64,000 nt of DNA from Tyzzerella sp. (GTDB lineage Bacteria; Bacillota; Clostridia; Lachnospirales; Lachnospiraceae): contig JAFQRJ010000006.1 in assembly GCA_017410145.1 (NCBI GenBank), positions 21,062 through 85,061 of the forward strand, read 5' to 3'. Below are positions 386-25,336 of this stretch, piece by piece (within the stretch, counting starts at the first letter, position 1; each line of letters starts with the position of its first letter). A program made the position numbers and the translations under genes. Below the pieces are notes generated by a model, which was given only the letters and a program-made list of their open reading frames with translations, had not been told where the DNA came from and searched no databases.

Positions 386-437
386 GTGGGTAACTGTATC
401 TGTAAACATGTAAATATACTAGGTTTTATGGAGCGGA

Positions 438-727
438 ATTTCTGTATACAGAAAAAGTTGTTAACAATACCCGTTATCATGTAGACATACTAGTTTATAG
501 CACGTGAAATTTCTATATACAAGAAAAATATTCTCAAATACCCTTGGAGTTGTAACAAAGTGGGTATTTGAGAATATTTATTTTACATATAGAAAATCAA
601 TACGAAAAAGTAAAATAATTAAGGGTATTGCAAACAAATTTCTGCCTATATAGAAAATTTGAACAATTCTAATTGGAAATGACAAAAATTGTGGGTATAG
701 CGAAGATATTTTCTTGCATATAGAAAA
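438..727. repeat. Array of five 35-bp degenerate units GGGTAT-N20-TATAGAAAA (2 reverse, 3 forward)
   Basis: Reverse units 438-472, 509-543; forward units 562-596, 623-657, 693-727. Confidence 0.85.
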
Positions 728-824
728 ACAGGAACACGGAAAAAATCCTGTAAATATCTATAATTTACCAAAGCACATGACAGCAATTTTATGATAATAT
801 CATTTTGGCTACTGAAAAATTGTT

Positions 825-1811
825 CTATAGAAGGTGCGACACATCTACATATTCGTGGTGTACGTCTTTTACACCATCTCCCGTAATTCGAAATACCGTT
901 CCGCCGTTTAAAACCGGGTTCCAATAACATCCCGGACCGGTATTTAAAGCGAAAATCAGTTGAATTCCTTCATAGCGAATTATCCAGTTGTTCACATGGT
1001 CATGACCTGCAAGAATATGCGTCGTCAACCCCATTTCTTTTACGGCTGAAAACACTCCATCGTCTAAAGGAAAAGAGGAGATGTCTTCGTATTGCACGCC
1101 GGTGCTTTCTTTGTAGTCCGCCTCCCAACATTCGTCTCCCAACGCCTGTGCCGGAGTGAGTTCCTTTAGGTTGATATCTCTCTTATACGCACAGGCAGAT
1201 GCTTTGCGATAGGCGTTTATCGGAATGTGTGTGATTAAAATTGCATCCTTACAGCCATTTTCTTTCAAATGCGATATCTGTTCTTTATACCATTCAATCT
1301 GTGCAGGTGTCAGTTTAGACCATGCCTCATATTCTTTGCCATCTACGTTTACATATTTTTCTCTGTCGTGAGTATCCATAAGAAGAAGAGCGGTTATTAA
1401 CTCGTCTTTTTCTGTAATTGCAACCACATAATTTCCATTTCCTAAAACCGGGTCACCTTTTTCGAAAAGGCAATATGGACGTTTCATGTACCTTGTAGCT
1501 ACATTGTCTACCAACTCAGAACCACCTTGATTGTCGTGATTTCCGAAGATAGGAGCCCAAGGAATATGAAAACTTTCGATAAAATCCGCAAATTTGTCAT
1601 ACGCAATATCATTTCCGGCCCATGCAATATCGCCGGAAATGGTAATAAGGTCGGGATTACTCCGTTGAATCAATTCCGTAATGGTATATTCCAAGATTTG
1701 ACGGTTTGGATGCCCTTCATCCCATTCCTCGTTTGACAATTGGGTGTCAGTCAGATTGAGGATAATAAAGTCCTTTTCAGGACATTTATGTAGTGTTTTA
1801 TTTGATGACAT
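825..1811 (-). CDS. Calcineurin-like metallophosphoesterase
   Basis: Motifs LTDTQ, SGD, FGNHD, THIP, AGHDH; start chosen at ATG 1811 after GGAG RBS (ORF extends to 1871). Confidence 0.85.
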   Translation of the reverse strand: MSSNKTLHKCPEKDFIILNLTDTQLSNEEWDEGHPNRQILEYTITELIQRSNPDLITISGDIAWAGNDIAYDKFADFIESFHIPWAPIFGNHDNQGGSELVDNVATRYMKRPYCLFEKGDPVLGNGNYVVAITEKDELITALLLMDTHDREKYVNVDGKEYEAWSKLTPAQIEWYKEQISHLKENGCKDAILITHIPINAYRKASACAYKRDINLKELTPAQALGDECWEADYKESTGVQYEDISSFPLDDGVFSAVKEMGLTTHILAGHDHVNNWIIRYEGIQLIFALNTGPGCYWNPVLNGGTVFRITGDGVKDVHHEYVDVSHLL

Positions 1812-22914: not shown

Positions 22915-24480
22915 ATGAATAATTTTAAAAAAATAGGGGGATTTTTCTTAAGTATATGTTTACTTTTCGTGCTACTTTCAGGAGAGGCGTTTGCAGCGTC
23001 AGCAAAAGTAAGTGTATCTAGTGCGAGTGGCAACGTTGGTAATACTGTTACGGTAACATGTTCAGCGACTACATCCGGGACTGCGATTGGTGGTGCAGAT
23101 ATTACATTGAAATATGATCCTTCTGCGCTGACAGTTGTAAATTGTTCAAGTGGGGCAAGTGGAAGTTCAGGAAGTGTGTACTACAGTGGATATGCTACTA
23201 GTGGCGGATTGACCAAGTTAAGTTTTACAGTGAGTTTTAAAATTTTGAAGGCAGGAACACATAGTATTAGTGTAACATCTGCAGACGTATATGATTATGA
23301 AGCAGCAAGTTCTGTTTCTACAAGTTCAAGTGGTGGTAAGATTACCGGAAAAGTTCCTACAACTAACAACAATAATAACACAAACAACAATACTAATAAT
23401 AACAAACCACAGAACAACAAAGACACGAATAACAAGTTAAGTGCTCTTCAAGTGTATCCGGGAAATTTAAGCCCGGCATTTAGCGGGGATACTACTTCTT
23501 ATACAGTAAGTGTTCCGGGAGATACAACAGAAGTGACAATTTCTGCAACTCCGGCTAGCAGTAAATCAACGGTAAGCGTTTCGGGTGGAAAAGATTTGAA
23601 ACTAGGTCCAAACGAGGCAAAAGTTATTGTTGTCTCTGAAAGTGGCTCGTCCAGAGCATACACCATTACAATCATGTGCGGAGAAGCAGAAAAGATTCAG
23701 ATTGGAAACGTCGAGCATACGATTGATGAGAATTTTAAAGACGACCAGATACCAACAGGATTTAGCAGAAAGCAAGTGACATACAACAACAGACAATATG
23801 AAGCAGTGACGAATACAAGTGGAAGTCTGGTGCTTATGAATTTAAAATCCGGTGAGAACACAAGCTTTTATATTTACAACCAGGAAGCAAAAGAATTCTA
23901 TGATTTTATACAAATTAAATTTGCAGAAGGTAAATATATTATTCCACTGCCACTTAATAAAGAGGTGGCAGAGTTTGCAGAGTATGAAACTGTAGCACTT
24001 CAGGTGCAAGGAAAGCGTGTGGATGCTTGGAAACTGGATGAAGAATTTAGTGTTGCTTATGTGATGAATCAAGATGGAACAGAAGTCTTATACAAATATG
24101 ACAGTTTAGATGGAACCTTCCAAAGATACAACGATATAAAAGTCGAAGATGTGGAACAGGCACCAGTTGAAAAAACTTGGTTCCCGAACGAGTATTATAT
24201 GTATGCAATCGTAGGGCTCGGTGCACTTTCTTTTATTCTCTTAATTGCGATGATTTACTTTATCGCAAGCAGAAAAGCAAGACATGAGGGGAGAAAGAAA
24301 AAAGCAATGAAACGCCAGGAAAAGCAGAAAGCAAAAGAAGAAAGACAACGAGAAAAAGAAGCACGTGAACTTGAAAAACATAGACAGATTTTAGAAGAAG
24401 AACGTGAAAAACAACGCCAGAAAGAAGAAAAGAAATTGGCGAAACAACGGGCTAAAGAAGAAAAGAAGAGAGAAGAATAA
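22915..24480 (+). CDS. Membrane-anchored protein: cohesin-like domain + Asn-rich linker + cadherin-like beta-sandwich + TM + charged tail
   Basis: Signal peptide (AFA); VGNTVTV...IGGADITLKYDPSALTVV...FTVSFKILKAG cohesin-like pattern; LSPAFSGDTTSYTVSV; TM near the C-terminus; E/K/R-rich tail. Confidence 0.72.
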   Translation: MNNFKKIGGFFLSICLLFVLLSGEAFAASAKVSVSSASGNVGNTVTVTCSATTSGTAIGGADITLKYDPSALTVVNCSSGASGSSGSVYYSGYATSGGLTKLSFTVSFKILKAGTHSISVTSADVYDYEAASSVSTSSSGGKITGKVPTTNNNNNTNNNTNNNKPQNNKDTNNKLSALQVYPGNLSPAFSGDTTSYTVSVPGDTTEVTISATPASSKSTVSVSGGKDLKLGPNEAKVIVVSESGSSRAYTITIMCGEAEKIQIGNVEHTIDENFKDDQIPTGFSRKQVTYNNRQYEAVTNTSGSLVLMNLKSGENTSFYIYNQEAKEFYDFIQIKFAEGKYIIPLPLNKEVAEFAEYETVALQVQGKRVDAWKLDEEFSVAYVMNQDGTEVLYKYDSLDGTFQRYNDIKVEDVEQAPVEKTWFPNEYYMYAIVGLGALSFILLIAMIYFIASRKARHEGRKKKAMKRQEKQKAKEERQREKEARELEKHRQILEEEREKQRQKEEKKLAKQRAKEEKKREE

Positions 24481-24524
24481 AAACAAGTGCGGCTCAGAAC
24501 ACATCGATGAGTCGCACTTGTTTT
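24479..24524. terminator. Bidirectional terminator
   Basis: AAAACAAGTGCGGCTCA...TGAGTCGCACTTGTTTT. Confidence 0.8.
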
Positions 24525-24551
24525 ATATTGGTCATACCAACTGATTTCAGT

Positions 24552-24854
24552 ATGGGTATATGCTGCTTTTTTTTATTTGCTATACCCTTATGTTTGCCTG
24601 ATTCCATGTGGTTTTGGGAGATTTTTTCTATATGAAAAATAAGTGTTTTGTAATACCCTGCTTTTTCACAACCTATGGGCATGGCAAGCAAGTTTTTTTG
24701 CGTATAGAAAATTCTAACCACCAAGGTACCCTTTGGGGTCTGAATTTGGGGTATAGGAAGCAAGTTATTATGTATATAGAAAAAAACACCCCGAAAGTGT
24801 TTTTGCATCCCTGCGTTTTGGGTATGGAGAGCCAATTATTATGCATATAGAAAA
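24552..24854. repeat. Second array of GGGTAT-N20-TATAGAAAA units (2 reverse, 3 forward)
   Basis: Reverse units ~24552-24587 (degenerate) and 24624-24658; forward units 24677-24711, 24749-24783, 24820-24854. Confidence 0.85.
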
Positions 24855-24895
24855 ACGCCCCCCAAGTGCTGCTCATAGCCCGAATTAAGGGTGCG

Positions 24896-25336
24896 CTATA
24901 TTCTACTTAAAAAACTATTATGATATAACCTGCTAAATGTCACATCTTCTGCAAACCAATCAGGGGCGATGAATGCCTTTGCCTCTTCTTCGGAAGCAAA
25001 TTCCACCTCTGCAAGTGTGAGAGGAGCTAAGTCTCCTTCAAAAATGTCTAATTCAATGGTATATTTTTCAAACGGAATCATGTAACGTTTTTTAGTAATG
25101 AGTCTGCCGTCTATTTTCTCTTTCAGGTGTTCATAAGCTTCTTTTGTAAGTGGAAGATTATATTCCTCGCGTATCATCATTCCTTTTGCTTTATACGTGA
25201 GTTCGTATTTGTCATTATCCTTTCTGATGCGAACCACCGGACCGGTACACAGGTAGCCTTGTTCTAAGTGGCGCACAGGGTATTTTTCTAAATCATTTGG
25301 TAATTCTTTTAATAAAAATTTGCGTTCGATTTCCAT
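24896..25336 (-). CDS. CYTH domain protein (triphosphate tunnel metalloenzyme)
   Basis: MEIERKFL (ExExK), QGYL, VRIR, LTYK, ELDIF, AEVEF. Confidence 0.92.
   Translation of the reverse strand: MEIERKFLLKELPNDLEKYPVRHLEQGYLCTGPVVRIRKDNDKYELTYKAKGMMIREEYNLPLTKEAYEHLKEKIDGRLITKKRYMIPFEKYTIELDIFEGDLAPLTLAEVEFASEEEAKAFIAPDWFAEDVTFSRLYHNSFLSRI

What the first reader, a model, noticed from the sequence alone, without database searches (positions are those of the whole stretch)
24552..24854. Second copy of the array 24 kb away: architecture conserved, spacers diverged
Seen: the same motif and layout as 438-727. Two reverse units end 71 bp apart (24587, 24658), then a gap of again exactly 18 bp (24659-24676), then three forward units at 24677, 24749 and 24820 (periods 72, 71). 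Spacers are not obviously alignable between the two loci, so unit length, orientation switch, central gap and period are conserved while the filler is not. Both arrays lie between convergent genes, just past the plus-strand gene's terminator and 3' of a minus-strand gene. Inference: selection on geometry points to an undescribed dispersed cis-element family, for example for nucleoid organisation, site-specific recombination around the 18-bp core, or RNA processing, served by a trans-acting factor encoded elsewhere. This is my best candidate for a novel system.
Basis: partly seen in the sequence, partly recalled or inferred. Interest (0 to 1): 0.85.

Follow-up and report, generated by a model that had tools for sequence, protein, structure and literature searches.

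The report
Dispersed repeat array with cognate nuclease
The array is real: it is a roughly 370-bp non-coding insertion from a repeat family scattered through some Lachnospiraceae genomes, and reference copies of that family flank a single gene for an uncharacterised restriction-enzyme-like nuclease, a layout that resembles the REP/transposase "REPtron" of E. coli but uses a different kind of enzyme.

Summary
The unit GGGYAT-N20-TATAGAAA occurs 8 times in the window against 0 expected. The array is a 367-bp insertion (24530-24896), absent from the same site in five sister species. It sits 5 nt after a terminator and is flanked by a TATATT duplication.

The genome has five such arrays. A relative, G042, has at least 20 loci, and none lies between divergent genes. 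The family's basic form is an inverted unit pair around an 18-19 nt gap, then a spacer, then a "U0" unit (GGGTAT..ATACCC). Extra units arise by tandem duplication, so the 71-nt period is local and not a family rule.

The main result concerns a gene on another contig. Inverted copies of the element, U0 inward, flank a 259-aa gene with no Pfam or NCBIfam family. Its C-terminal domain has a PD-(D/E)xK, Vsr/TnsA-like nuclease fold. I saw this layout, on both flanks or one, at several loci in different gene contexts. G042 has one detected copy of the gene. Paralogues of the gene carry their own flanking words (TGGGCAA, TGGGCGA, TTAGGCA).

Best reading: a REPtron-like repeat and nuclease system, with window array B a solo copy. 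The link to the nuclease rests on association only; no activity was tested.

The parts
24530..24896 (.). Array B as a whole: a 367-bp insertion, a solo non-autonomous copy of the GGGTAT repeat family
   Evidence: Absent at the orthologous site of G052, G008, G019, G053 and G011, whose flanks are about 86-90% identical.
24524..24529 (.). Left copy of the TATATT direct duplication
   Evidence: Empty sites carry one TA(C/T)ATT. This may be a target-site duplication; only one locus shows it.
24897..24902 (.). Right copy of the TATATT duplication. It overlaps the remodelled stop codon of the CYTH gene.
   Evidence: The stop codon at 24896-24898 spans the junction between insert and flank.
24480..24524 (+). 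Native intrinsic terminator of the upstream gene. The insertion lies 5 nt after it.
   Evidence: 17-nt inverted arms, 94% complementary (I4). A terminator hairpin with similar stem sequence stands at the same place in the empty-site relatives.
24554..24587 (.). U0-type unit: GGGTAT at the 5' end and ATACCC at the 3' end
   Evidence: (I12). The same unit type closes arrays in G042, G007, G046 and metagenome loci.
24625..24658 (-). Reverse unit U-1 (TTTCTATA..ATACCC)
24659..24676 (.). 18-nt central gap between the inverted unit pair
   Evidence: The gap is 18-20 nt (mostly 18-19) in all 28 pairs collected by a pattern that allowed 16-21 nt. Two arrays that pattern could not catch have 60 nt (Cc) and 9 nt (G052, downstream of atpC).
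24677..24710 (+). Forward unit U+1 (starts GGGCAT)
24749..24782 (+). Forward unit U+2
   Evidence: It is 89% identical to a unit of the C29 reference array.
24820..24853 (+). Forward unit U+3
386..754 (.). Array A, the sister copy in the window. Units at 439-472(-), 510-543(-), gap 544-561, then 562-595, 623-656 and 693-726(+).
   Evidence: The closest relative G052 has only the central hairpin at this site, and its loop is homologous to this gap.
22915..24480 (+). Upstream flanking gene (cohesin plus cadherin-like domains); not part of the element
24896..25336 (-). Downstream flanking gene (CYTH domain); not part of the element

Best explanation
Array B is a solo, non-coding copy of a modular DNA repeat family.

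The family's basic form has three parts:
- an inverted pair of 34-nt bipartite units (TTTCTATAT-N19-ATACCC, an 18-19 nt gap, GGGTAT-N19-ATATAGAAA);
- a spacer;
- a U0 unit (GGGTAT..ATACCC).

The copy entered the short spacer between two convergent genes, just after a terminator, after this species split from its sisters. It then gained extra forward units by tandem duplication of unit plus filler. That duplication gives the local 71-72 nt period.

Reference copies of the family flank, as inverted repeats with U0 inward, a gene for a 259-aa protein. The protein has an N-terminal coiled-coil/beta module and a C-terminal PD-(D/E)xK (Vsr/TnsA/I-Bth0305I-like) nuclease domain.

I infer that this protein recognises the conserved words of the units and, by cutting or recombining at them, spreads and amplifies the repeats. 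That would parallel the way the Y1 transposase TnpA(REP)/RAYT is thought to spread the REP/BIME sequences that flank it in a REPtron.

Shown here: the anatomy, the insertion polymorphism, the dispersal, the gene-repeat association and the nuclease fold. Inferred: binding, cleavage and mobilisation by this protein.
For: 1. Real and non-random. There are 8 matches in the window against 0 in shuffles. The genome holds 5 arrays.

2. An insertion. Five sister genomes have an empty site with clean boundaries and one copy of TA(C/T)ATT. At the pfl locus the array is likewise absent from G008, G053 and G041. The copy is stable within the species in contigs from 4 gut-metagenome studies.

3. Dispersed and placed like REP or MITE elements. 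G042 gives 43 unit hits at 20 or more loci. All 19 loci with a scored element lie next to a gene's 3' end, and none lies between divergent genes. In this genome four arrays (A, B, Ca, Cc) start just after a terminator.

4. Family members occur in Agathobacter, Faecalimonas and other Lachnospiraceae assemblies.

5. Association with the gene. Inverted elements, U0 inward, stand on both sides of the 259-aa gene in G000 (318 bp, 88% identical), G046 (182 bp, 93% identical), G042 and the P0022 loci, which lie in a different gene context. At the P0084, P0104 and P0013 loci family units were seen on the downstream side only. In G007 a pseudogene remnant of the gene adjoins an array.

6. G042 has one detected copy of the gene, and that copy is flanked by 2 of its roughly 20 elements.

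7. Paralogues carry other cognate words in their flanks, for example TGGGCAA x13, TGGGCGA x10, TTAGGCA x9, TTGGACC x9. Sister proteins have related words.

8. The protein. The AF2 models have pLDDT 89 (whole protein) and 92 (C-terminal domain). Almost all fold matches with Z of 5 or more are restriction-endonuclease-like nucleases: I-Bth0305I Z 8.8, Bax1 8.5, TnsA 8.3, Vsr 7.0. E157, D187, H203 and D208 are invariant and E202 nearly so. The C-terminal domain matches the end of the PADLOC candidate PDC-S68 at E 5e-30.

9. Contigs carrying homologues are often only 1-1.3 kb long, or break about 130 nt upstream of the gene. That is expected if repeats flank the gene.

10. The REPtron parallel. 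tnpA(REP) is single-copy, always flanked by variable numbers of REP/BIME, and the BIMEs are thought to spread and then amplify locally (PMC3333891).
Against: - No activity was tested, so the gene-repeat link is association only.
- Orthologues of the gene at the dnaB locus in G008, G053 and G011 have no detectable arrays, so the gene can exist without the repeats.
- Solo elements equal one arm of the flanked structure, not two ends joined. They are therefore not classical deletion derivatives of a transposon.
- A target duplication is seen at one locus (B) and not at another (Cc).
- At locus A the closest relative keeps the central hairpin only. This fits local growth or decay better than one clean insertion.
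- The canonical lysine of the (D/E)xK motif is not evident; the motif reads E-H-F.
- All assemblies are incomplete MAGs (G000 68%, G042 65%), so copy numbers are lower bounds.
Confidence: 0.55

Rival explanations
1. It is an ordinary MITE moved by an unrelated, unassembled DDE or other transposase. The nuclease gene is flanked by copies only because the element likes terminator-proximal spacers or because the gene hitch-hikes.
For: Insertion polymorphism with a 6-bp duplication at B. Intergenic, terminator-proximal placement. IS elements are often missing from MAGs. An IS110-type transposase sits beside one homologue (L186).
Against: The same inverted, U0-inward layout recurs around the gene in several different gene contexts. 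Paralogues have different cognate words. No transposase was seen next to any array examined. Solo copies lack terminal inverted repeats at their outer ends.
Confidence: 0.15
2. It is an RNA-level system. The arrays are transcribed, and the nuclease-fold protein binds or processes the repeat RNA, like a type III toxin-antitoxin pair or a Cas6-like processor. Solo arrays would be extra RNA genes or decoys.
For: Many paralogues are followed by head-to-tail arrays of units of about 40 nt, each with a 7-bp hairpin. Vsr-like RAP/FASTK domains, which act on RNA, are among the fold matches at Z 6.7-8.1.
Against: There is no covariation for a hairpin. Arm identity within a copy is 10.0 of 19 against 8.95 between copies, and the RNAalifold energy is weak and rests on invariant columns. 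No Rfam match. No sigma-70-type promoter in the units of B. The flanking arrays are inverted on the two sides of the gene, so they cannot both be sense. In type III systems the repeats lie upstream of the toxin gene (my own knowledge).
Confidence: 0.12
3. It is a host cis-regulatory or architectural array: phased binding sites for a DNA-binding protein that organises DNA or insulates convergent genes, kept by selection on geometry.
For: The end words and the central T-tract of each unit are conserved while the interior drifts. The 18-19 nt gap is conserved across genera. The array is stable in four populations.
Against: It is absent from the same sites in sister species with no visible replacement. 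The period is not conserved across the family. Distribution within the genus is patchy, with more than 2 unit hits in only 5 of 47 genomes.
Confidence: 0.1
4. It is a degenerate CRISPR-like array: about 35-nt repeats with about 36-nt spacers.
For: A repeat of 34-36 nt plus filler of 36-37 nt gives a CRISPR-like period.
Against: Units are only 62-77% alike. Fillers are paralogous to each other rather than unique. The two halves are inverted. No cas gene is nearby. No CRISPR family in the Rfam scan.
Confidence: 0.01

Closest known systems
REPtron: REP/BIME sequences with their Y1 transposase TnpA(REP)/RAYT (E. coli, Pseudomonas)
   Same: [quoted passage not shown] Inverted pairs (REPIN-like) are the basic form, and arrays grow by local amplification. 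Different gene clades go with different repeat sequences (PMC3333891; abstracts).
   Different: The enzyme here has a PD-(D/E)xK/Vsr-like fold, not the HUH Y1 fold. PF01797 does not hit it and does not track the family. The units are 34-nt bipartite words that are not palindromic on their own and have no GTAG. The host is Bacillota (Lachnospiraceae).
MITEs, such as Correia, RUP, BOX and bcr1 elements
   Same: Small, non-coding and multi-copy, with insertion polymorphism between close relatives. One copy has a short AT-rich duplication. The structure is modular with variable module number, like BOX.
   Different: The outer ends carry no terminal inverted repeat. Solo copies equal one arm of the gene-flanking structure. 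No DDE transposase partner was found. No target duplication at the second locus tested.
Tn7 TnsA and homing endonuclease I-Bth0305I (PD-(D/E)xK/Vsr-like nucleases of mobile DNA)
   Same: The C-terminal domain shares their fold (Z 8.3 and 8.8). Both are nucleases that serve the mobility of DNA elements.
   Different: There is no sequence similarity detectable with HMMER. No TnsB/TnsC partners, no intron or intein context. The N-terminal module is different.
Type III toxin-antitoxin loci (ToxIN)
   Same: A nuclease gene stands next to a short tandem repeat array.
   Different: By my own knowledge, ToxI repeats lie upstream on the same strand and ToxN has a Kid/MazF-like fold. Here the arrays lie on both sides in inverted orientation or downstream, and the fold is restriction-endonuclease-like.

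Membership tests
REP/BIME-RAYT (REPtron) | The repeat is a 20-40 nt imperfect palindrome with a conserved 5' GTAG | tested here: not met
   Units read GGGTAT-N20-TATAGAAA, have no GTAG and are not self-complementary. Only U0 and the central pair have complementary ends.
REP/BIME-RAYT (REPtron) | The associated enzyme is a Y1 HUH transposase (Pfam PF01797) | tested here: not met
   The flanked gene has no PF01797 hit. PF01797 genes are absent from the repeat-rich G042 and G052 assemblies and present in many repeat-free genomes.
REP/BIME-RAYT (REPtron) | A low- or single-copy gene is flanked by its own repeats, while many further copies are intergenic | tested here: met
   G042 has one detected gene copy, flanked by 2 of about 20 elements. 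G000, G046 and the P0022 loci show the same layout.
MITE | Terminal inverted repeats at the two ends of the element | tested here: not met
   The ends of the B insert and of the Cc insert show no inverted repeat. The inverted pair is internal.
MITE | Target-site duplication of fixed length | tested here: inconclusive
   TATATT is duplicated at B. No duplication is visible at Cc. Only two loci could be tested.
MITE | Presence/absence polymorphism at orthologous sites | tested here: met
CRISPR array | Near-identical direct repeats separated by unique spacers, usually with cas genes nearby | tested here: not met
   Repeats are 62-77% alike, fillers are paralogous, the halves are inverted and the neighbours are housekeeping genes.
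Rfam RNA families | Match to a curated covariance model | tested here: not met
   No match at gathering score in the window. Only chance-level hits at E-value thresholds.
PD-(D/E)xK nuclease superfamily (for the 259-aa protein) | Restriction-endonuclease-like alpha/beta core fold | tested here: met
   C-terminal domain model pLDDT 92. Almost all matches with Z of 5 or more are nucleases of this fold (I-Bth0305I 8.8, Bax1 8.5, TnsA 8.3, VRR_NUC 7.3, Vsr 7.0).
PD-(D/E)xK nuclease superfamily (for the 259-aa protein) | Catalytic D...(D/E)xK residues | tested here: inconclusive
   E157, P186-D187, H203 and D208 are invariant and E202 nearly so, but the third motif reads E-H-F with no lysine. A Vsr/EDxHD-like His-Asp site is possible. 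I did not map the residues onto the model.
Known IS transposase families | Match to a Pfam or NCBIfam transposase model | tested here: not met
   No Pfam or NCBIfam hit for the protein.
Type III toxin-antitoxin | Repeat array upstream of, and co-oriented with, an endoribonuclease toxin gene | tested here: not met
   Arrays lie on both sides in inverted orientation or downstream. No PADLOC ToxN-type hit appeared.

The most novel reading that the evidence does not exclude
The 259-aa proteins form a very large, unnamed family of repeat-associated nucleases in Bacillota: 7817 clusters at 50% identity with E up to 0.001, and 2586 up to 1e-30. Each lineage would have co-diversified with its own short DNA word of the type TGGG-YNN, carried in arrays beside the gene. 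Some lineages, such as the GGGTAT one, would have spread these arrays through the chromosome. That would be a second, mechanistically independent invention of the REP/RAYT lifestyle, and a natural set of nuclease and recognition-word pairs.
Probability: 0.4. Interest if true: 0.8.

Novelty: new variant of a known kind. Interest (0 to 1): 0.62.

Why it matters
So far, dispersed intergenic repeats with a cognate single-copy enzyme are essentially known from Proteobacteria, with HUH Y1 transposases (REP/RAYT). This finding points to an analogous system in gut Firmicutes built on a restriction-endonuclease-fold protein that has no family name, although it has thousands of diverse relatives. If the link holds, four things follow:
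- A large 'hypothetical protein' family gets a function.
- Recurrent contig breaks and intergenic hypervariability in Lachnospiraceae MAGs get an explanation.
- Inverted copies provide substrates for inversions; the MerR-nuclease segment is already found in both orientations in different species.
- The family offers protein and DNA-word pairs for studying how specificity evolves.

Tried and rejected
- **Rfam.** No family at gathering score in the window. Only chance-level hits in E-value mode on array B and on six G042 elements.
- **Sigma-70 promoter and terminator scan.** No promoter-like site inside the units of B. The two in array A were no more than shuffles give. By-eye comparison with sporulation-sigma, sigma-54, Spo0A and CodY consensus sequences was unconvincing and was dropped.
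- **Conserved hairpin or RNA.** The arms of the central pair are only marginally more alike within a copy than between copies. RNAalifold gives about -11 kcal/mol on invariant columns only.
- **Small ORF after U0.** The RBS-like purine tract there is followed by no conserved reading frame.
- **HUH/RAYT.** PF01797 does not co-occur with the family.
- **Phage or plasmid origin.** No BLAST match in either collection. The central pattern is not found in viral contigs.
- **Public scans with the central pattern.** 8 genome-contig and 6 metagenome-contig hits, about half of them chance hairpins in unrelated DNA.
- **Expression.** No RNA holder was listed for the stretch.
- **Within-species empty alleles.** No contig in the four runs laid joins across the array.
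- **Sequence search of the PDB** with profiles of the protein found nothing significant.
- **Literature.** No paper for PDC-S68, and none found for MITE or REP families in Lachnospiraceae.
- **Other repeat words** (TGGGCGA, TGGGCAA) are mostly confined to the gene-adjacent array in their genomes. Genome-wide dispersal is therefore not general to all paralogues.
- **Tree of 24 homologues.** It is poorly resolved. Three rows (the G046, G019 and G008 dnaB copies) were mistranslated across a frame change in my script and must be ignored.

Full report
**1. Observation**

The 34-nt unit GGGYAT-N20-TATAGAAA occurs 8 times in the window: 4 at 510-726 and 4 at 24625-24853. None was found in 100 dinucleotide-preserving shuffles. 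In the 1.89-Mb assembly the strict pattern has 13 hits against 0 for the reversed control.

A profile search finds five arrays:
- A, at window 386-754;
- B, at window 24530-24896;
- Ca, Cb and Cc on contig C29, which I read as locus L001.

Each array has reverse units on the left and forward units on the right, so the GGGTAT ends face an 18-nt gap. Cc is the exception, with a 60-nt gap. An alignment of 20 units shows near-invariant GGGTAT, a central T-tract and (Y)ATATAGAAA, with a drifting interior.

Two corrections to the finding. The outermost 'reverse unit' of B (24554-24587) is a separate type, U0, with GGGTAT at one end and ATACCC at the other. The fillers within an array are diverged tandem duplicates, not unrelated sequence.

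**2. It is an insertion**

Five species of the same genus have flanks about 86-90% identical to this genome. In them the terminator is followed directly by the 3' end of the CYTH gene, and the 367 bp at 24530-24896 are missing. The empty site has one TA(C/T)ATT where the filled site has TATATT on each side. The right junction rebuilds the CYTH stop codon.

At the pfl locus, array Cc is absent from G008, G053 and G041, with clean boundaries but no visible duplication.

At locus A the closest relative, G052, has only the central hairpin: ATACCC, an 18-nt loop homologous to the gap of A, then GGGTAT. Arrays therefore also grow or shrink in place.

Downstream of atpC, G052 has a typical array, G019 a diverged one and G053 a remnant. 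G000 and G008 carry an unrelated repeat at that site.

Contigs from four animal-gut metagenome studies carry array B intact, with two substitutions and one single-base indel. No contig joins across it.

**3. The family**

A sequence-only covariance model was run over the 47 genomes of the genus. It finds many units in G000 (20), G042 (43), G007 (16) and G052 (8), and 6 weak partial hits in G020. The other genomes have 0-2. Diverged members, such as those in G046 and G019, escape the model.

In G042 the element has one regular form of about 170-190 bp: U-1, a 19-nt gap, U+1, a 45-nt spacer, U0, and a short purine-rich tail. All of it aligns between copies.

All 19 G042 loci with a scored element lie beside a gene's 3' end. 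None lies between divergent genes. In G000 arrays A, B, Ca and Cc start within a few nucleotides of an intrinsic terminator.

Members occur in Agathobacter, Faecalimonas, 'Tyzzerella' and unnamed Lachnospiraceae assemblies.

The 18-19 nt gap and the 34-nt unit hold across these genomes. The 71-nt period does not: array A has 61 and 70, G042 has single pairs, and in another Lachnospiraceae array the units stand much closer together.

**4. What it is not**

- It matches no Rfam family.
- The units of B hold no sigma-70-like promoter.
- It is not a conserved hairpin. Interior identity between the two arms is 10.0 of 19 within a copy and 8.95 between copies (permutation p = 0.002, driven by a few young palindromes). 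The alifold energy is weak.
- It is not CRISPR-like in repeat identity or in its spacers.
- It has no match in the phage or plasmid collections.
- Y1/RAYT genes do not track it.

**5. The gene**

Arrays Ca and Cb are 88% identical inverted copies (318 bp). They flank a MerR-type gene and a 283-codon frame, probably 259 aa from the second ATG.

While looking for empty sites in G042, I found that the ORF lying between two G042 elements is a 69% identical homologue of that frame. It too is flanked by inverted elements with U0 on the gene side.

The same layout recurs elsewhere:
- on both sides of the gene in G046 (182 bp, 93% identical) and in two metagenome loci of homologue P0022, which sit in a different gene context;
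- on the downstream side of P0084, P0104 and P0013;
- next to a pseudogene remnant of the gene in G007.

G042 has one detected copy of the gene and at least 20 elements.

Other paralogues in the genus, and two of three random distant representatives, carry other short words in their flanks, often as head-to-tail arrays of about 40-nt hairpin units:
- TGGGCAA x13;
- TGGGCGA x10;
- TTAGGCA x9;
- TTGGACC x9;
- TGGGTCT;
- TGGGACA.

Those other words are mostly confined to the gene's neighbourhood. Sister proteins have related words, but the tree is otherwise unresolved and three of its rows were mistranslated and must be ignored.

Contigs carrying homologues are often only 1-1.3 kb, or break about 130 nt upstream of the gene, as expected if repeats flank it.

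**6. The protein**

- It has no Pfam or NCBIfam family. Some NCBI records call it 'ATPase', and nothing here supports that name.
- It has 3299 relatives among 90%-identity clusters. Among 50%-identity representatives, 7817 score E up to 0.001 and 2586 score up to 1e-30.
- The protein atlas lists only Bacillota.
- AlphaFold2 gives pLDDT 89 for the whole protein and 92 for residues 128-259.
- The N-terminal part is a long helical hairpin with a three-stranded sheet. Its matches are generic coiled coils.
- The C-terminal domain has the restriction-endonuclease fold: I-Bth0305I catalytic domain Z 8.8 (rmsd 2.9, 90 residues), Bax1 8.5, TnsA 8.3, VRR_NUC 7.3, Vsr 7.0, XisH-like 6.1.
- PADLOC matches it to the C-terminal end of the candidate-defence protein PDC-S68 (E 5e-30) and weakly to a PD-DEXK model.
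- E157, D187, H203 and D208 are invariant and E202 nearly so. No lysine follows E202.

**7. Mechanism**

The best-supported picture is a REPtron-like system. In E. coli a single tnpA(REP) gene is always bordered by variable numbers of REP/BIME. These are thought to spread by the enzyme's action and then amplify locally (PMC3333891).

[quoted passage not shown] Solo copies of the same module have landed in safe, terminator-proximal spacers and have grown by tandem duplication. Array B is one such solo copy.

Binding, cutting and mobilisation by this protein are inferred, not shown. Several points argue for caution:
- some orthologues of the gene have no arrays;
- solo copies are single arms;
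- the target duplication is inconsistent between loci;
- locus A points to growth or decay in place.

Rivals are an ordinary MITE with an unseen transposase, an RNA-level nuclease and repeat system, and a host architectural array.

**8. Verdict**

The finding extends to a candidate cognate enzyme of a new kind. I rate it a new variant of a known kind, with interest 0.62.

Noticed in passing
G000 contig C11 30573-30859 (outside the window; seen): Downstream of atpC this genome carries a different short repeat family, with TTTACGGTG / CACCGTAAA words in both orientations. G008 has a shorter version at the same site. G052 and G019 have GGGTAT-family arrays there instead. This spacer looks like a hot spot for small repeats.
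   Followed up: partly
L001:6844-8252 (G000 C29 22843-24251) compared with G008, G019 and G046: The MerR-plus-nuclease segment between dnaB and a sugar-binding-protein gene lies in opposite orientation in G008 and G019 compared with G000 and G046. In all four it is flanked by inverted repeats: arrays in some, duplicated terminators in others. It may be an invertible segment.
   Followed up: partly
window 24896-24902: The insertion of array B fell on the stop codon of the CYTH gene. The empty sites read ..AGA ATG TAA, and this genome reads ..AGA ATA TAG, with the new stop spanning the junction.
   Followed up: yes
L001:10025-12456 (G000 C29): Pyruvate formate-lyase is encoded as a 721-aa frame with only the first half of the glycyl-radical domain, followed by a separate 80-aa frame carrying the second half. 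This is either a split gene or a GrcA-like spare part.
   Followed up: no
pfl locus in G011, G019, G052, G013 and G051 (L044, L047, L048, L052, L051): Where G000 has array Cc, these relatives carry an unrelated 120-175 bp insert that starts with a long hairpin (GAGATAAATAAGGCACCACAT..). This is another small mobile or structured element.
   Followed up: no
window 781-1500: The metallophosphoesterase gene next to array A is 98% identical in G013, although the neighbouring cysE is only about 76% identical and is not adjacent there. This suggests recent horizontal transfer of that gene.
   Followed up: no
L183:3820-4000 and L192 downstream of the gene: Beside the nuclease gene some loci carry further head-to-tail repeats of another kind. 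One has a 39-nt unit starting GGGTATATAGG, repeated 5 times. Another has a roughly 21-nt unit with CATGCGGAGCACC, repeated about 8 times and with differing copy number between two samples.
   Followed up: no
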